Below, piece after piece: positions 21,839 through 53,463 of a stretch of 64,000 nt of DNA. The stretch spans positions 2,810,017 to 2,874,016 of the forward strand of contig OZ242260.1 of the NCBI GenBank assembly GCA_965207065.1, written 5' to 3'. The position numbers and the translations under genes were made by a program. This DNA comes from a bacterium (GTDB lineage Bacteria; UBA8248). The notes beneath the pieces were generated by a model. The model saw only the letters and a program-made list of their open reading frames with translations, was not told where the DNA came from and made no database searches. Each line of letters starts with the position of its first letter. Positions within the stretch are counted from its first letter, which is position 1.

Positions 21839-22171
21839 GGGTCAATCCCTCAGAAAATCCGTAACTGAATGGCGGCGGAAGCGGATACCCCTGCGGGGGG
21901 AATGACGAATACGCCCCGGACAGGTCGCGACCTGTCCCTACAATTCAAGAGAGACTGCCTATTCCTCGCTCCACGCCTTCTCGTACTTCGCCCGGTGCTC
22001 TTTTGGCAGCGGGGAGGCGAAATACGATATCCCGACGAAGAGCACCGTGTTCACCAGCAGGCCGAAGAAGCCCGGCAACGTCCCGTCTCGGTAAAACCAC
22101 GATCCGTGCAAACCCACACGCCCTTGCATGCGACCTGTTCATGGACTATATTCAGTCCACAGGAGGCGGCC

Positions 22172-22447
22172 ATGACCCTTTCGGACCGGATAAAACCCAT
22201 CAGTTACCTCAAGGCGCACGCCGCGGAAATCGTCCGCACGCTCGGGGAGCGGGGAGAACCCCTGGTGATCACCCAGAACGGGGAAGCCAAGGTGGTCATG
22301 CAGGACATCGACAGCTACGAGCAGATGCAGGAGACGCTCGCCCTGCTCAAGATTCTCGCCCTGGGCGACCGCCAGATTGAAGCCGGGCAGACGCAGCCCG
22401 CTGCCGATGTGACGGCGCGGCTCCGGGAGCGGCTCCCGGCCCGCTGA
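22172..22447 (+). CDS. type II antitoxin, Phd/YefM family
   Basis: About 91 aa (MTLSDRIKPISYLKAHAAEIVRTLGERGEPLVITQNGEAKVVMQDIDSYEQMQETL); aggagg RBS; stop overlaps toxin ATG (TGATG). Confidence 0.8.
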   Translation: MTLSDRIKPISYLKAHAAEIVRTLGERGEPLVITQNGEAKVVMQDIDSYEQMQETLALLKILALGDRQIEAGQTQPAADVTARLRERLPAR

Positions 22448-22773
22448 TGCCTTTCGCGGTTCACCTGACCGAGGACGCGGCGCGCGACCTGGAAGATATC
22501 TGCGAAACCATCGAACGGCGCGATTCACCCGCCGGCGCCGCCCATGTGCTCGACAGAATCGAAGAGGCGTTTACCGGCCTTTGCGAACATCCCCGGCGCG
22601 GCGCTTTCCCGAAGGAATTGCTGGATATCGGGATTCGCGAATACCGCGAGGTATTTTTCAAGCCCTACCGGATTATCTACCGGGTGCGGGAGGAGAGCGT
22701 ATATGTGCTCCTGATCGCCGACGGCAGGCGCGACATGCGGACGCTGCTGGAGCGGCGTTTGCTTTTGGCGTGA
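22447..22773 (+). CDS. type II toxin, RelE/ParE family
   Basis: 108 aa with ParE/RelE-like sequence (YRIIYRVREESVYVLLIADGRRD); translationally coupled to the Phd-like gene. Confidence 0.8.
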   Translation: MPFAVHLTEDAARDLEDICETIERRDSPAGAAHVLDRIEEAFTGLCEHPRRGAFPKELLDIGIREYREVFFKPYRIIYRVREESVYVLLIADGRRDMRTLLERRLLLA

Positions 22774-47966: not shown

Positions 47967-48430
47967 GTATTTATCGTATTTTTCGGAATTGTTCAGGGGT
48001 GATTGTCCTCGACTTCGCCGCCCCGGCCGCGTCCCGATGACTCCCTCTCTCACGCACTGACGACATGTCTGGAGAGTCATCGAACGGGCCGATCTCCCGG
48101 CGGCGAGGCGCGGTTGCAAGAGCGAAGACCGCGCGTCGAGCAGGAGGATGGTACACCTTTCCGGAACGCGCACCTGCGGGGAAATGCGCGCTTCCCGGCG
48201 GCGGACCTCATCGGCGCGCGCGCCCTCATCACCCAGGCGCTCGATGAGCGGGCCGCAAGTTTCCGCGAACGCTTCGGCATCCGCGCGTTCTCGGAGCGCG
48301 AGTCGCTCATGCTGCTGTTGAGGATATCGGAGTCGAGAGACGTGTTTTAGGGCAGGGCGTGCACGGATTCGAGGATAGGCGGCTTGGCGCAAGGTTGGCT
48401 GAGCGATGGATTATCGCAGCTACGCACCGC

Positions 48431-48796
48431 TCAGTCCTGCTCCAGGAGGACGGCCAGCTTCTCCAGCGCTTCGCCCACCACGCGCGGCGGAGCCTGCGAC
48501 GCGAGGCGCGCCTTTCGCGCCCGCCAGTCGAGGCTCTTCACCTGATCGGCGAGCACCACGCCCGTAACGGGGCCATCGGCGGGGAGCGCCACCTCGAAGG
48601 GATAGCCCTTGGCTCTCGAAGTGACGGGACAGAGGAGCGCCAGACTGCTTTTCTCGTTATAGCTTCGCGGGCTGACGACCAGCGCGGGGCGGCGGCCCGC
48701 CTGCTCATGCCCCGCCTGGGGGGTGAAGGAGAGCCAGACGACGTCGCCCCTGCCCGGAACGTAGTCCGCGTCCGAAACCACCGGTCTCGCTACCAC
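48431..48796 (-). CDS. mazF: type II toxin, MazF/PemK family endoribonuclease
   Basis: PemK/MazF pattern (GDVVWLSFTPQAGHEQAGRRPALVVS, LCPVTS, VVLADQVKSLDWRARKA). Confidence 0.85.
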   Translation of the reverse strand: MVARPVVSDADYVPGRGDVVWLSFTPQAGHEQAGRRPALVVSPRSYNEKSSLALLCPVTSRAKGYPFEVALPADGPVTGVVLADQVKSLDWRARKARLASQAPPRVVGEALEKLAVLLEQD

Positions 48797-49029
48797 GCCT
48801 CAATGCCCTGCGCCGGGCCTGCGTCCTGTTCGGCGTGGAGGTTGTCCGCGTTCATCTCAGCGAGCATGTCGGCCAGCCGGTAGCCTCTCTTGCGCATCAC
48901 CACCCTGTCGCCGCGCGCGCTCATCTCGATGGCCGAACCCTCCCGGACGCCCCATTGCTCGGCGATGGGCTTCGGGATGCGGACGGCCAGGCTGTCGCCC
49001 CACTTTGCGATATGCGATTTCGCGCCCAT
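48790..49029 (-). CDS. mazE: type II antitoxin, MazE/AbrB-SpoVT family
   Basis: 79 aa with swapped-hairpin motif (AKWGDSLAVRIPKPIAEQWGVREGSAIEM); overlaps mazF start. Confidence 0.8.
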   Translation of the reverse strand: MGAKSHIAKWGDSLAVRIPKPIAEQWGVREGSAIEMSARGDRVVMRKRGYRLADMLAEMNADNLHAEQDAGPAQGIEAW

Positions 49030-49517: not shown

Positions 49518-50252
49518 TTATCCGCGTGTTTTGTCCGTGCTGAAAGCTCCAGGCATTTCGTCCCACGTCCTGTCGTCCAGCGTTCGGCCCGTCTTTTTCT
49601 TGAACACGCCGCCCCATTGCTTGAAGAAAAAGGGCGTACCGCTGTGCACGCAGTTGTCGCGAATCTCTCTCACCCAGTCCGGCTCCATAAGCCTTGCGCC
49701 CGGCCCGGATTCCCCGCCGACGATCACCCAGTCGATGCCTGTAAAGTCCAGGCCCGGCAAAGGACCCAGCAGGGGTTCGAGAGAGAGAAACTTCGTCCGG
49801 GCACCGGTTTCTCGGAGCGGCCCCAGACGTCCGAGCCATTTTTCGGATTCGATGCTCGCGCCGAGCCAGATGTTGGGCGTCCAGTTCAACTTCCTGCCGA
49901 GCAGAGCGGCCCGGCCCGGGCGCTTGGTGAGCACCTGAAACGTGTGCCGGGTCGAGCGGTTCATCACGTCGAAAACGGACTCGATGAAACCGGACGGCAC
50001 CGATTGATGAAACAGATCGGACATGGAGTTGACGAATACGAGGCGCGGTTTCTTCCATCTCAGGGGTTCATCGAGAGAGGACTCGTGGGTGGCGAGGGAG
50101 AACCCGTTCTTGTACTTCTCGACTCCCATACTTTGGAGCCGTTTCGACATTCTCTCGGCGTAGCAGTGCTTGCATCCGGGGCTGATCTTCGTGCAGCCGG
50201 TCACCGGGTTCCAGGTCATCTCGGTCCACTCGATGCTGGAAATCGTCGACAT
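49518..50252 (-). CDS. phage Gp37/Gp68 family protein (DUF5131)
   Basis: N-terminal [27 protein letters not shown] Cys motif characteristic of that family. Confidence 0.75.
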
Positions 50253-50494: not shown

Positions 50495-50911
50495 TCAAAT
50501 ACTGAGAATGAATTCATCCTTGTACATGGTAAAATGAACTTCCGAAAGAAAATCCATGCCAAGCAATACATCAAAATTTTCAGGCTGGAACGGAAGTAGG
50601 GAAACTTCAATTTCCTTGCCTCGTAGATTGAGCCATGCTCCGGCTCCTCCCCCCGACGCCTCTATTTGATCTCCAATCGGGATGTCGACCTTGACCCTGT
50701 ATTTTTCAGTTTGGATTGGATCCCCGCTGACGGGAATGATGTCGGTAAAACCGATGCTGGACAGTTTTCCTTCATCGACCACCTTCTGAGATATCATGGT
50801 GCCTTGCGCACCCGTATCCAGTATCGCCGGATAGGATTTAGGCTCGGTCCGCGCCGATGGCGGGCTCCCGATCGAAATGGCGACAAACAGGCGGATTTCC
50901 CTGTTTTCCAC
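50495..50911 (-). CDS. retropepsin-like (clan AA) aspartic protease
   Basis: 138 aa with active-site LDTGAQ in a pepsin-like half-barrel-length protein; lower-GC segment. Confidence 0.7.
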   Translation of the reverse strand: MENREIRLFVAISIGSPPSARTEPKSYPAILDTGAQGTMISQKVVDEGKLSSIGFTDIIPVSGDPIQTEKYRVKVDIPIGDQIEASGGGAGAWLNLRGKEIEVSLLPFQPENFDVLLGMDFLSEVHFTMYKDEFILSI

Positions 50912-50949
50912 TCGACCCCGGAATGTAGGGATTTAGAGTTTATTTGACT

Positions 50950-51225
50950 TCAGGATTTGGGTAGACACATGGTGAAAACGCCGAGAGATATTGGCGGTTC
51001 GCCAATTTTTTCAATCGAGAAATTACCGAGACCGAATTTCTCGCAGCCAATCGCATATGCGTCACCGCTATCGTCATATATTTCCACAACTTCCCCGTCA
51101 TGGAGCAATGCCGCCCTTCCGAAGTGTTCGGCCTCCATTTCTTCCTTTATGGCGTTGTACGCAGCTCGGTTCTTAACAAGCTGTGAGTTCATCTTCCTAC
51201 CCTCCCGCAAGTAGGCGAATATCAA
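50950..51225 (-). CDS. small hypothetical protein upstream of the retropepsin-like gene (possibly DUF5678-like)
   Basis: 91-aa ORF, same strand, 38 nt upstream of the protease gene; family assignment is from memory only. Confidence 0.4.
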   Translation of the reverse strand: MIFAYLREGRKMNSQLVKNRAAYNAIKEEMEAEHFGRAALLHDGEVVEIYDDSGDAYAIGCEKFGLGNFSIEKIGEPPISLGVFTMCLPKS

Positions 51226-51362: not shown

Positions 51363-51643
51363 TCATTCCCGGAACAAATCGGAGTGCGAACCCGTGCGGA
51401 CGAGGCGCAACTCGTTTCCTCTGATGCGGTAGATCAAGAGCCAGTCCGGCTCGAAGTGGGCTTATTGGGATCCTCTCCATATTCCGCGCAGCGGATGATC
51501 GAGATTGCGCGCAGGCAGCGGCTCCTGGCGGATGAGCGAGTTGAGCAACTCCCGCAGTTTGGTGAGGTCTTTCCCTCGCCTCCGGGCTCTTCTCACGTCG
51601 CGCTTGAATTGCGATGAACCAGTACTTACAGACCCAAATCCTC
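51363..51643 (-). pseudogene. YafQ-like (RelE superfamily) toxin gene interrupted by an in-frame TAA
   Basis: Frame reads ...FKRDVRRARRRGKDLTKLRELLNSLIRQEPLPARNLDHPLRGIWRGSQ-stop-AHFEPDWLLIYRIRGNELRLVRTGSHSDLFRE; stop at 51462-51464. Confidence 0.5.
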
Positions 51644-51883
51644 GAACAACTCCTCGGCGCTGTCGAAGCGCTCCCCCTTGCCCTCGTCGAGTTCTTTCAT
51701 CGCCTTGCGGGTGGCGGGGTTCGGCGCGCGGACGACGAAGGGCAGCCTTCGCTCCTCCGCCACGCGCATCATGAGCAGGCGAATCGCATCCGATACCGAA
51801 AGGCCCATCGCGTTCAGCGCCTCCGTGGCACGGGCCTTGGTCTCGCTGTCGATTCGGGCGCGGACTACAGTATCCGTCGGCAT
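51626..51883 (-). CDS. type II antitoxin, RelB/DinJ family
   Basis: 85 aa with ribbon-helix-helix N-terminus (VVRARIDSETKARATEALNAMGLSVSDAIRLLMMRVA). Confidence 0.75.
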   Translation of the reverse strand: MPTDTVVRARIDSETKARATEALNAMGLSVSDAIRLLMMRVAEERRLPFVVRAPNPATRKAMKELDEGKGERFDSAEELFEDLGL

Positions 51884-52056
51884 TTGGCGTCCTCCTCTCG
51901 TGTAGCCTCATTGTAGCTACATCACCTCGTCCCCCATGTCAAGGGCAATTCCCTGTGGTTTTAGACTGAATCCCTCCCCCCGTTTGGCATCGGCGCGGAA
52001 CCTTGGTCTAATGGTCGCGGTTTTTTTCGTTGAGCGCCTTACCCGAAGGAGGAAGT

Positions 52057-53463
52057 ATGGCGGCGTATGACGTGGCGGTGATCGGAGGGGGGCCTGCGGG
52101 CTATGTGGCGGGCGTGCGCGTCGCGCAGAGCGGCGGAAGCTGCGTGGTCATCGAGCGCGACGAGCTGGGCGGCACCTGCCTGAACTGGGGCTGCATCCCC
52201 AGCAAGAGCTTAATCGCCGCCGCGGAAGTTTTGAGGAACATCAGGAACGCGGACGCCTACGGGGTCGAAGTCACGGGCGAGGTGCGCGCCGACCTCGCCG
52301 CCATGGTCGAGCGCAAGGACAAGATTGTCGCAGGCCTGGTGAAGGGAATCGGCGGGCTGTTCAGGGCCCACGGGGTGGACCACATGGCGGGCGACGCCGA
52401 GATTCTGGAGATGGGCAAGATTTCCGTGCGCGGAAAAGAAGGGGAACACGAGATAGTCGAGGCCGATAAGATCATCATCTGCACCGGTTCCCGGCCCGCG
52501 CAGATTCCCGCCTTTCCCATCGACGGCAATAAAATCATTTCTTCCGAGCAGGCCGTGCACCTGAAATATCTGCCCGAGCGGTTGCTCATCGTCGGCGCGG
52601 GCGTCATCGGCTGTGAGTTCGCGTGTCTCTATAAAGAGCTTGGCGCCAGGGTCGTCATGGTGGAGTTGCTCGACCGGGTCCTGCCGCTGGGTGATGAGGA
52701 TGTCTCGAAACTCATGGCGCGTGAATTAAGAAAACAGAAGATCAAGGTGCGCCTGAATGAGAAGTTAACGGGCGTCTCGCGCAAGGATGATGAGATGGTC
52801 GCGCAATTCGAGGGTTCGGACGAAGAAGAGCGCGCGGACCTCGTGCTCGTCTCCGTGGGCCGGACGATGAACACCGACGGCCTGGGTCTCGAGCGAATCG
52901 GCGTCGAACTCGGCCCGCGCGGCGAGATCAAGGTGAACGAGATGATGGAGACGAACGTGGCGGGAGTCTACGCGGCGGGCGACGTGGTGGGCGAGCCCAT
53001 GCTCGCGCACGTGGCCTCGGCGGAAGGGGTCGCTGCGGCGGAAAACGCCATGGGCGCGGAGATACGGATGGATTACCGCGCGATTCCGGCGGGCATCTTC
53101 ACGCATCCCGAGATCGGCGTCGTCGGCATGGCCGAACACGAGGCGGAGAAGGCGGGTCACGCGGTGCGCGTGGGCAAGTTCTCGGTTCGCGCTCTCGGCA
53201 AGGCGCAGGCCGAACGCGCGCTGGAAGGCGAGGTGAAGGTCATCGCCGACGCGGGGGATGACGCCATTCTGGGCGTGCACATCGTGGGCGCCCACGCCGC
53301 CGACATCGTGCACGAGGCCGCCGTCGCCATGCAGCACCGCGTAACCGCCTCCGACCTGGCCGGCACCATCCACTCCCACCCCACGCTTTCGGAAGCCGTC
53401 ATGGAGGCGGCATTGGACGTGCACGGCGAGGCCATCCACGCCCCGCCGAGGAAACGTTCATAA
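52057..53463 (+). CDS. lpdA: dihydrolipoyl dehydrogenase
   Basis: FAD motif VIGGGPAGY, redox-active disulfide GGTCLNWGCIPSK, NAD motif and C-terminal interface His (HSHPTLSE). Confidence 0.9.
   Translation: MAAYDVAVIGGGPAGYVAGVRVAQSGGSCVVIERDELGGTCLNWGCIPSKSLIAAAEVLRNIRNADAYGVEVTGEVRADLAAMVERKDKIVAGLVKGIGGLFRAHGVDHMAGDAEILEMGKISVRGKEGEHEIVEADKIIICTGSRPAQIPAFPIDGNKIISSEQAVHLKYLPERLLIVGAGVIGCEFACLYKELGARVVMVELLDRVLPLGDEDVSKLMARELRKQKIKVRLNEKLTGVSRKDDEMVAQFEGSDEEERADLVLVSVGRTMNTDGLGLERIGVELGPRGEIKVNEMMETNVAGVYAAGDVVGEPMLAHVASAEGVAAAENAMGAEIRMDYRAIPAGIFTHPEIGVVGMAEHEAEKAGHAVRVGKFSVRALGKAQAERALEGEVKVIADAGDDAILGVHIVGAHAADIVHEAAVAMQHRVTASDLAGTIHSHPTLSEAVMEAALDVHGEAIHAPPRKRS

What the first reader, a model, noticed from the sequence alone, without database searches (positions are those of the whole stretch)
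51363..51883. DinJ/RelB antitoxin retained while its YafQ-like toxin carries an in-frame stop
The antitoxin gene is intact. The downstream toxin frame has recognisable YafQ sequence on both sides of a TAA at 51462-51464 (WRGSQ-stop-AHFEPDWLLIYRIRGNELRLVRTGSHSDLF), consistent with toxin inactivation and an orphan antitoxin. Caveat: my manual base count and the ORF track disagree by 1 nt in parts of 51600-51720, so the toxin 5' end is uncertain.
Basis: seen in the sequence. Interest (0 to 1): 0.45.

Follow-up and report, generated by a model that had tools for sequence, protein, structure and literature searches.

The report
Dead YafQ toxin, conserved orphan DinJ antitoxin
A chromosomal dinJ-yafQ toxin-antitoxin pair has lost its toxin through three separate lesions while keeping an intact antitoxin; this is an ordinary kind of decay, but related genomes lost the toxin at least seven separate times and all kept the antitoxin under purifying selection.

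Summary
On the minus strand, an intact 85-aa RelB/DinJ antitoxin (51883-51626) is followed by a YafQ-family reading frame (51625-51363) with TAA at 51464-51462.

Compared with intact 90-aa relatives it has three defects:
- the GTG start is now GTA;
- 10 nt are deleted after codon 2;
- YRE became SQ-stop through four substitutions within 8 nt.

This is a real pseudogene, not a one-base sequencing error.

The related loci are the more interesting part. Seventeen Nitrospinota-type loci carry this antitoxin at 90% identity or more, and every one whose upstream flank was held has it beside lpdA. Only three keep an intact toxin. The other fourteen lost it through at least seven different lesions; the closest relative has a different stop, Q9*. 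The antitoxin ORF stays intact, with one doubtful start region in L015. Its dN/dS is about 0.04-0.19, even inside groups that inherited a toxin deletion. The operator TGTAGCTACA-N5-GCTACA is kept.

Best reading: an orphan antitoxin maintained by selection, probably as an autorepressor that can still bind YafQ-type toxins in trans. This is a known kind of thing, of modest interest.

The parts
51626..51883 (-). Intact RelB/DinJ-family antitoxin gene (85 aa): N-terminal ribbon-helix-helix part and C-terminal toxin-binding part
   Evidence: ORF. Pfam RelB 3.8e-21 and NCBIfam RelB_DinJ 6.7e-21. Aligns end to end with E. coli DinJ, 4ML0_A/4Q2U_A, E about 3e-14. The identical protein occurs in four other assemblies despite about 12% DNA divergence.
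51363..51625 (-). yafQ-family toxin pseudogene (whole remnant, from the former start codon to the natural TGA)
   Evidence: Pfam YafQ_toxin matches on both sides of the stop. tblastn gives 92% identity to intact relative P0001 over residues 7-90, with a stop.
51623..51625 (-). Former toxin start codon, now GTA (GTG in L001, L003, L009, L010, L012, L015 and L083)
   Evidence: Alignment; translations.
51619..51620 (-). Junction of a 10-nt deletion (ACGCCCGTTC in L001) that removes codons 3-6 and shifts the frame relative to the former start
   Evidence: Alignments. Frame 0 from GTA stops after 10 codons.
51462..51470 (-). Substitution cluster TACCGGGAA to TCCCAATAA (Y56S, R57Q, E58*); the TAA lies at 51464-51462
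   Evidence: E58 aligns with E. coli YafQ Asp61. No template for the cluster elsewhere in the window.
51453..51455 (-). I61F substitution, at a position that is Ile in all 13 close homologues retrieved (Val in E. coli YafQ)
51901..51921 (-). Probable operator TGTAGCTACA-ATGAG-GCTACA (a palindrome plus a third half-site), overlapping a TACAAT hexamer at 51915-51910
   Evidence: Inverted repeats. Unique in the window. Conserved in the 16 clade loci that have upstream sequence, with one base changed in L009. The same motif lies upstream of homologous dinJ-yafQ modules in other phyla while the flanking sequence differs. Binding has not been tested.
51937..51942 (-). Conserved TTGACA hexamer, 21 nt upstream of TACAAT (non-canonical spacing)
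   Evidence: The sigma-70 scan called no promoter here. Outgroup modules have 17-nt spacing.
51891..51895 (-). GGAGG ribosome-binding site 7 nt upstream of the antitoxin ATG
   Evidence: Sequence; a GGAGG or close variant lies at this position in most clade loci.

Best explanation
This is a chromosomal dinJ-yafQ type II toxin-antitoxin module whose toxin gene is dead and whose antitoxin gene is alive and kept by selection. Shown: the YafQ frame has lost its start codon, carries a 10-nt frameshifting deletion and has a stop at codon 58. That stop lies before three of the four residues that carry out catalysis in E. coli YafQ, and before the phenylalanine that stacks on the mRNA. No active mRNA-cleaving toxin can be made. 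Shown: the antitoxin ORF, its ribosome-binding site and the palindromic upstream motif are intact. In sister lineages that inherited a toxin deletion, the antitoxin still evolves with dN/dS of about 0.1 in both its DNA-binding half and its toxin-binding half. Inferred: the orphan DinJ-like protein still binds its operator and represses its own transcription. Inferred: because its toxin-binding C-terminal half remains constrained, it is kept mainly to neutralise YafQ-type toxins supplied in trans. These could come from incoming mobile elements (anti-addiction or immunity) or from a paralogue elsewhere in the genome.
For: Toxin dead: searches show the three lesions. Searches show the family match and that the stop lies at the E. 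coli Asp61 position. PMC4652777 gives the roles of His50/His63, His87, Asp67 and Phe91. Not an artefact: the lesions are of three kinds. The closest relative, L083 (lpdA 97.2% nt identity), has a different lesion (Q9*, CAA to TAA) and keeps the start, the 10 nt and YRE. Recurrent loss: of 17 loci with an antitoxin at least 90% identical, only L001, L010 and L015 have an intact 90-aa toxin. The others show at least seven distinct lesions or junctions. lpdA is adjacent in the 14 of them whose upstream flank was held. In the sample not chosen by protein identity, the clade has 2 intact and 10 lost, against 70 intact and 19 lost in more distant homologues; Fisher p=4.5e-5, though the loci are not phylogenetically independent. 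Selection on the orphan: pairwise dN/dS is 0.00-0.19 within deletion group A and 0.06-0.14 within deletion group B, the same as among toxin-bearing loci at 0.06-0.14. The C-terminal half gives pN/pS of 0.16-0.22 and the N-terminal half 0.02-0.10 in toxin-less groups. A neutral ORF would stay intact in only 19-33% of lineages at 0.10-0.15 substitutions per site, yet all nine deletion-group lineages are intact. The operator motif is conserved in the clade and travels with the module across phyla. The family is common on mobile DNA: 1206 PLSDB plasmids and 52 viral contigs. Homologues at 70-81% antitoxin identity sit in MAGs of many phyla.
Against: Nothing here shows expression, DNA binding or toxin neutralisation. 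The window lineage lost its toxin recently: toxin pN/pS between the window and L083 is only 0.26. Selection on the orphan is therefore inferred from sister lineages, not measured in this lineage. No mobile-element copy closer than about 71% identity was found. Whether a paralogous YafQ exists in the same genome is unknown: only 64 kb are visible and they hold none. Recombination between lineages could spread toxin-less alleles, since the lpdA tree and the deletion types do not agree. That would reduce the number of truly independent events for the two shared deletions. The promoter spacing is non-canonical and the scan called no promoter.
Confidence: 0.6

Rival explanations
1. The antitoxin has been domesticated as a pure transcription factor. 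It is kept only for DNA binding, either autoregulation or control of other genes such as the divergently transcribed lpdA, and toxin binding no longer matters.
For: The N-terminal DNA-binding half is the most constrained part (pN/pS 0.02-0.10 in toxin-less groups). The operator is conserved. The gene sits beside lpdA in every clade locus whose upstream flank was held. E. coli DinJ is described as a regulator beyond its own locus (abstract of PMC4996492).
Against: The C-terminal toxin-binding half is also constrained in toxin-less groups (0.16-0.22, against 0.13 in toxin-bearing loci), which a pure DNA-binding role does not require. The operator motif occurs only once in the 64-kb window. It moves with the module into unrelated genomic contexts, so it belongs to the module rather than to lpdA.
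Confidence: 0.2
2. This is neutral decay in progress. The toxin died first, as it must, because losing the antitoxin first would be lethal. The antitoxin now has no function and has simply not yet accumulated lesions.
For: In this particular lineage the toxin lesions are young: the closest relative has a different lesion and the toxin has few other changes. Toxin-first decay is the expected order, and orphan antitoxins are abundant in other bacteria (PMC7192599 and PMC10790755). A TacT remnant in the same island shows that complete decay happens here.
Against: All nine lineages in the two groups that inherited a toxin deletion keep an intact 85-aa ORF, with dN/dS of about 0.1 and dS up to 0.6. 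Under neutrality only 19-33% of lineages would stay intact even at 0.10-0.15 substitutions per site, ignoring indels. The window's antitoxin protein is identical to that of four other assemblies across 8-14 synonymous differences measured between some of them.
Confidence: 0.12
3. This is an assembly or sequencing artefact, and the toxin is in fact intact in the organism.
For: The window probably comes from a metagenome-assembled genome, and read support could not be examined. One relative, L015, has a suspicious 2-nt insertion in a T run near the antitoxin start.
Against: It would take three unrelated errors of different types in 165 nt: a start-codon substitution, a 10-nt deletion outside any homopolymer, and four clustered substitutions. 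Meanwhile the adjacent antitoxin is perfect. Other assemblies independently show toxin loss at this locus.
Confidence: 0.03
4. The toxin is still made, by stop-codon readthrough, recoding or association of two fragments.
For: Codons for all five residues assigned a role in catalysis in E. coli YafQ are still present in frame (H47, H60, D64, H84, F88).
Against: There is no start codon in the toxin frame downstream of the antitoxin gene. The 10-nt deletion removes the N-terminal strand. TAA is used as a normal stop by the antitoxin itself. Y56S, R57Q and I61F hit positions that do not vary among the 13 close homologues retrieved.
Confidence: 0.02

Closest known systems
E. coli DinJ-YafQ type II toxin-antitoxin system (PDB 4ML0, 4Q2U; toxin alone 4ML2)
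   Same: Same two families and the same order, antitoxin first with the toxin start abutting the antitoxin stop. The antitoxin aligns end to end with DinJ (E about 3e-14). The repaired toxin aligns with YafQ over residues 7-88 (E about 4e-25). His50, His63, Asp67, His87 and Phe91 are all conserved. There is a palindromic operator upstream.
   Different: Here the toxin is a pseudogene with three lesions. The operator sequence is the family-specific TGTAGCTACA-N5-GCTACA; no LexA site was looked for.
Orphan (solo) antitoxins of decaying chromosomal TA loci, as catalogued in Klebsiella and E. coli (PMC7192599, PMC10790755). From my own knowledge: the decaying ccdO157 locus and the anti-addiction role shown for chromosomal ccd of Erwinia chrysanthemi.
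   Same: The antitoxin is retained in the original genomic context while the toxin is disrupted or deleted. The proposed roles are the same: anti-addiction, cross-neutralisation or regulation.
   Different: Those surveys are within species or genera and mostly report counts. Here the same locus can be followed across about a dozen species-level lineages, with at least seven distinct loss events and measurable purifying selection after the loss.
DinJ as a regulator beyond its own operon in E. coli (abstract of PMC4996492)
   Same: It gives a precedent for a DinJ-type antitoxin having a toxin-independent regulatory function.
   Different: No second target site was found in the 64-kb window, and no evidence of such a role exists here.

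Membership tests
RelB/DinJ antitoxin family (Pfam PF04221, NCBIfam TIGR02384) | Profile match above the curated cut-off over the full length | tested here: met
   PF04221: 75.2 bits against a cut-off of 22.4, profile positions 3-81 of 82. TIGR02384: 74.3 bits against 45.65, positions 1-85 of 85.
RelB/DinJ antitoxin family (Pfam PF04221, NCBIfam TIGR02384) | Two-part architecture like DinJ: N-terminal ribbon-helix-helix and C-terminal toxin-wrapping region | tested here: met
   Sequence aligns with DinJ chains 4ML0_A and 4Q2U_A over residues 3-85. This is a sequence-level test only; no structure was predicted.
RelB/DinJ antitoxin family (Pfam PF04221, NCBIfam TIGR02384) | Encoded directly upstream of a cognate RelE/YafQ-type toxin | tested here: met
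   The toxin frame starts 0 nt after the antitoxin stop. It is intact in relatives L001, L010 and L015 and in most outgroup loci. In the window it is a pseudogene.
RelB/DinJ antitoxin family (Pfam PF04221, NCBIfam TIGR02384) | Binds a palindromic operator in its own promoter and neutralises the toxin | not testable with these tools
   A conserved palindrome is present. Binding and neutralisation need experiments.
YafQ toxin family (Pfam PF15738; NCBIfam TIGR00053 and TIGR02385) | Profile match above the curated cut-off | tested here: met
The narrower TIGR00053 model gives 75.8, below its cut-off of 87.25.
YafQ toxin family (Pfam PF15738; NCBIfam TIGR00053 and TIGR02385) | Translatable full-length ORF of about 90 aa | tested here: not met
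   No start codon, a 10-nt deletion, and TAA at codon 58. It is a pseudogene of the family, not a functional member.
YafQ toxin family (Pfam PF15738; NCBIfam TIGR00053 and TIGR02385) | Catalytic His50/His63/Asp67/His87 and stacking Phe91 (E. coli numbering) | tested here: met
   The codons are present as H47, H60, D64, H84 and F88. Four of the five lie downstream of the stop.
Selectively maintained orphan antitoxin (anti-addiction type) | No functional cognate toxin next to it | tested here: met
Selectively maintained orphan antitoxin (anti-addiction type) | Purifying selection on the antitoxin after toxin loss | tested here: met
   Met in sister lineages that share a toxin deletion: dN/dS 0.00-0.19, with all nine ORFs intact. 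It cannot be measured in the window lineage itself, because the loss is recent.
Selectively maintained orphan antitoxin (anti-addiction type) | No toxin paralogue in the same genome that would make it a normal, split TA pair | tested here: inconclusive
   None in the 64-kb window. The rest of the genome is not available.
Selectively maintained orphan antitoxin (anti-addiction type) | Protects against killing by a homologous module on a mobile element | not testable with these tools
   Only circumstantial. The family is frequent on plasmids and viral contigs at up to 71% identity.

The most novel reading that the evidence does not exclude
In this Nitrospinota clade, whose MAG names suggest sponge microbiomes, the lpdA-linked DinJ homologue has become a standing immunity gene against a YafQ module that circulates between phyla in the same community. 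Under this reading selection repeatedly removes the costly toxin but never the antitoxin. It would be a natural, multi-species example of anti-addiction selection, visible as at least seven independent toxin losses with an unchanged antitoxin.
Probability: 0.3. Interest if true: 0.5.

Novelty: new member of a known kind. Interest (0 to 1): 0.3.

Why it matters
For annotation, the locus should carry an intact RelB/DinJ-family antitoxin and a yafQ pseudogene, not a functional TA pair. More broadly, the comparative picture is a clean natural data set on how chromosomal TA modules decay. Toxin-first loss has occurred repeatedly at one syntenic locus across about a dozen species-level lineages, and the antitoxin has stayed under purifying selection throughout. 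The data set can be used to test whether orphan antitoxins are kept for anti-addiction, for cross-neutralisation or for regulation. That question is usually argued from counts within single species.

Tried and rejected
- Sequencing error at the TAA: rejected, because there are three lesions of different types and relatives carry other lesions.
- The two halves are not one gene: rejected, because they match consecutive parts of one profile and are 92% identical to intact 90-aa relatives.
- A start codon hidden in the antitoxin 3' end: none exists in the toxin frame. The nearest upstream start is the ATG at 51911, before the antitoxin gene.
- A templated origin for the 4-substitution cluster: no similar sequence elsewhere in the window.
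- A second YafQ or DinJ copy in the window: none. The only other RelE-superfamily toxin has its own Phd antitoxin.
- The downstream pentapeptide-repeat gene as a new toxin partner in toxin-less relatives: rejected. It also follows the intact toxin in L001 and is absent from the window and from L083.
- A canonical sigma-70 promoter: not called. The spacing is 21 nt in this clade, although it is 17 nt in outgroups.
- Looking for the orphan-bearing genomes among the contigs of close toxin homologues, to detect paralogues: inconclusive, because those genomes do not seem to be in the protein collection.
- Ascertainment: loci L001-L004 were fetched by exact antitoxin identity, which forces dN=0 against the window. 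The selection argument therefore rests on the loci found by pattern search and on comparisons within the deletion groups.

Full report
**1. What is in the sequence**

Read on the minus strand, the region holds two features.

- An 85-aa ORF at 51883-51626, with a GGAGG ribosome-binding site 7 nt upstream of the ATG and a TAA stop. It matches Pfam RelB at 3.8e-21 and NCBIfam RelB_DinJ at 6.7e-21, both far above the curated cut-offs. It aligns end to end with E. coli DinJ in the solved DinJ-YafQ complexes 4ML0 and 4Q2U.
- A frame directly after its stop that reads STGSSQFKRDVRRARRRGKDLTKLRELLNSLIRQEPLPARNLDHPLRGIWRGSQ*AHFEPDWLLIYRIRGNELRLVRTGSHSDLFRE*. The internal TAA is at 51464-51462 and the natural TGA at 51365-51363.

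The two pieces hit Pfam YafQ_toxin independently, on consecutive profile positions: 6-55 at 3.9e-12 and 59-88 at 1.9e-11. With the stop replaced, the match is 4.7e-30 over positions 6-88. The best solved relatives are E. coli YafQ structures, E about 4e-25.

**2. The toxin carries three lesions, not one**

A search with the repaired toxin found thousands of homologues. The closest, at 76-93% identity, are 88-90 aa, nearly all 90 aa, and share the pattern MLTPVRSSQFKRDV...WRGYREAHIEPDW...SHSDLFRE. Looking up the exact antitoxin protein returned four other assemblies, L001-L004. Pattern searches returned 78 genomic and 55 metagenomic loci.

In relatives with an intact toxin (L001, L010, L015), a GTG start follows the antitoxin TAA directly. 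Against these, the window shows:

- a. GTG changed to GTA at 51625-51623.
- b. A 10-nt deletion between 51620 and 51619. It removes codons 3-6 and puts the rest of the gene out of frame with the former start. Frame 0 from GTA ends after 10 codons.
- c. TACCGGGAA changed to TCCCAATAA at 51470-51462, which is Y56S, R57Q and E58*.
- d. I61F.

There is no ATG, GTG or TTG in the toxin frame anywhere downstream of the antitoxin start.

The stop sits at the position of E. coli YafQ Asp61. It lies before the equivalents of His63, Asp67, His87 and Phe91 (PMC4652777). No active toxin can be made, and a single-base sequencing error cannot explain the state of the gene. Outside these lesions the remnant is well preserved, at 92% identity to P0001. 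Toxin pN/pS against the closest relative is 0.26. The inactivation is therefore recent.

**3. Context**

The locus lies between a divergently transcribed dihydrolipoyl dehydrogenase gene (lpdA, 52030-53463, +) and a class II ribonucleotide reductase gene (47550-43954, -). This stretch is variable and rich in toxin-antitoxin genes. In order it holds:

- the antitoxin and the yafQ pseudogene;
- a low-GC two-gene cassette: an 80-aa protein with no family match and a clan-AA aspartic protease;
- a DUF5131-type protein;
- an intact mazEF pair;
- a remnant of a GNAT toxin, TacT.

Record titles of the closest genomic loci name Nitrospinota or Nitrospinaceae MAGs. Several record names suggest sponge metagenomes; that origin is my inference.

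**4. What the relatives show**

Seventeen loci, counting the window, carry this antitoxin at 90% protein identity or more. lpdA lies next to it in all 14 loci that have upstream flank; L003, L004 and L011 have too little.

The toxin state in these 17 loci is as follows.

| Loci | Toxin state |
|---|---|
| L001, L010, L015 | Intact 90-aa toxin |
| Window | The three lesions described above |
| L083 | Q9* (CAA to TAA); otherwise intact start, no deletion, YRE kept |
| L012 | Stop at codon 7, and truncated after about 75 nt |
| L003 | Truncated after about 60 nt |
| L009 | Truncated after about 33 nt |
| L002, L004, L006, L011, L013 (group A) | One shared junction: a degenerate remnant of about 25 nt followed by a pentapeptide-repeat gene |
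| L005, L007, L008, L014 (group B) | A second junction with no remnant |

That makes at least seven distinct loss events.

L083 is the window's closest relative (lpdA 97.2% nt identity), yet its lesion is different. The two toxins were therefore inactivated independently.

In the loci not selected by protein identity, the clade has 2 intact and 10 lost toxins. More distant homologues have 70 intact and 19 lost (Fisher p=4.5e-5). These loci are not phylogenetically independent.

The deletion types do not follow the lpdA neighbour-joining tree. Either the tree is poorly resolved or toxin-less alleles have moved between lineages by recombination.

**5. The antitoxin is under selection after toxin loss**

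All 17 loci keep an open 85-codon antitoxin frame. In L015 a 2-nt insertion right after the ATG leaves the start unresolved.

Within group A and within group B, the toxin was already absent in the common ancestor.

| Comparison | Pairwise dN/dS | Pairwise dS |
|---|---|---|
| Within group A | 0.00-0.19 | 0.14-0.61 |
| Within group B | 0.06-0.14 | 0.24-0.54 |
| Among the three toxin-bearing loci | 0.06-0.14 | 0.23-0.35 |

Both halves of the protein are constrained in toxin-less groups. The N-terminal DNA-binding half gives pN/pS of 0.02-0.10, and the C-terminal toxin-binding half gives 0.16-0.22. In toxin-bearing loci these values are 0.16 and 0.13.

A simple simulation shows that a neutral copy would keep an exact-length ORF in only 19-33% of lineages at 0.10-0.15 substitutions per site, without counting indels. 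Nine of nine deletion-group lineages are intact.

One caveat concerns L001-L004. They were fetched by exact protein identity, so their dN of zero against the window follows from how they were found. The argument rests on the pattern-search loci and on comparisons within the groups.

**6. Regulatory region**

A block TGTAGCTACA-ATGAG-GCTACA (51921-51901) lies 18-38 nt upstream of the ATG. It consists of a perfect palindrome plus a third half-site, and it occurs once in the window. It is present in all 16 clade loci that have upstream sequence, with one base changed in L009.

The same motif, TGTAGCTACA-N5-GCTACA, sits at the same place upstream of homologous dinJ-yafQ modules in Latescibacterota, Nitrospirales, Alphaproteobacteria and other MAGs. 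Their flanking sequence is unrelated. The motif therefore belongs to the module and is the likely operator.

In those outgroups a -35 hexamer lies 17 nt from TACA(A/C)T, inside the palindrome. This is the classical layout for autorepression. In the Nitrospinota clade the TTGACA hexamer is 21 nt away, and the sigma-70 scan called no promoter. The actual promoter here is uncertain.

**7. Explanation and rivals**

Two things are shown: the toxin is dead, and the antitoxin with its operator is intact and is conserved by purifying selection in sister lineages long after toxin loss.

The rest is inferred. The protein probably still represses its own promoter. Because its toxin-binding half is also constrained, it is probably kept to neutralise YafQ-type toxins supplied in trans. 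The family is common on mobile DNA:

- 1206 PLSDB plasmids, at up to 71% identity;
- 52 viral contigs, at up to 61% identity.

Modules whose antitoxins are 70-81% identical occur in many phyla. This makes exposure plausible but does not prove it.

The rivals are:

- Domestication as a pure regulator. A precedent exists for DinJ (abstract of PMC4996492), but this does not explain the constraint on the C-terminal half, and no second site was found in the window.
- Neutral decay in progress. This is plausible for the window lineage alone, but it is contradicted by the sister lineages.
- An assembly artefact. This would need three unrelated errors.
- Recoding or fragment complementation. There is no start codon, and several positions invariant among the close homologues are changed.

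**8. Comparison with what is known**

The module is a member of the DinJ-YafQ family by every sequence criterion tested, except that the toxin is a pseudogene. It also falls below the cut-off of the narrow TIGR00053 model, while passing PF15738 and TIGR02385.

Orphan antitoxins left by decaying modules are well documented and abundant (PMC7192599 and PMC10790755). Anti-addiction, cross-talk and regulation are the standard proposals for their function. The finding is thus a new member of a known kind. What goes beyond the ordinary is the comparative pattern: one syntenic locus, about a dozen species-level lineages, at least seven different toxin losses, and an antitoxin that stays under selection.

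**9. Verdict**

Interest is modest (0.3). The most novel reading not excluded is a standing anti-addiction gene in a community where the module circulates. I give it a probability of about 0.3.

Noticed in passing
window 50495-51191 (-); L002 815-1511; L005 4980-5673; L008 3553-5676; L009 6529-6765: A low-GC two-gene cassette sits at different positions relative to the antitoxin gene in related genomes. It encodes an 80-aa protein with no family match and a 138-145-aa clan-AA (retropepsin-like) aspartic protease. It lies downstream of the yafQ pseudogene in the window and L083, between lpdA and the antitoxin gene in L002, L005 and L008, and after the pentapeptide gene in L006 and L011. In L002, L005 and L008 it is flanked by direct repeats (about 115 bp in L002, shorter blocks in L005 and L008) that include the lpdA 5' end. 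L009 has antitoxin gene, cassette, second antitoxin gene, which suggests shuffling by tandem duplication and deletion.
   Followed up: partly
window 48192-48368 (+): A C-terminal remnant (residues about 105-158) of a GNAT acetyltransferase toxin (TacT) with an internal stop. The TacA antitoxin present in L001 and L002 is absent here. This is a second, fully decayed TA module in the same island.
   Followed up: partly
window 48431-49029 (-): An intact mazE-mazF pair (MazF NCBIfam 4.7e-39, above the cut-off; 90-94% identical to the L002 copies). Toxin loss is therefore not general in this island.
   Followed up: partly
window about 22170-22773 (+): A Phd/YefM-family antitoxin (phd_fam 6.2e-10) followed by a 108-aa RelE/ParE-superfamily toxin with overlapping stop and start. 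This is another, apparently intact TA pair.
   Followed up: partly
window 51901-51942 (-); L016-L039 and L084-L088 upstream regions: The operator-like motif TGTAGCTACA-N5-GCTACA is carried with dinJ-yafQ modules across several phyla. The -35 to -10 spacing is 17 nt in outgroups but 21 nt in the whole Nitrospinota clade, toxin-bearing members included.
   Followed up: partly
L015 5992-6010: This relative has an intact toxin, but a 2-nt insertion in a T run right after the antitoxin ATG puts the annotated start out of frame. It is either a long-read assembly error or an N-terminally altered antitoxin.
   Followed up: no
window 51462-51470 (-): Four substitutions within 8 nt (TACCGGGAA to TCCCAATAA) created the stop. 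This looks like a multi-nucleotide mutation event. No donor sequence was found in the window.
   Followed up: partly
window 49518-50252 (-): A 244-aa DUF5131-type protein with a weak match to NCBIfam 'radical SAM mobile pair protein A' (2.9e-20, far below the cut-off). It is conserved downstream of the variable segment in most relatives.
   Followed up: no
L001 6259-6531: The intact 90-aa toxin gene of L001 (GTG start abutting the antitoxin stop) is missing from that record's called genes. Annotation-based counts of 'orphan' antitoxins in this family would therefore overestimate toxin loss.
   Followed up: no
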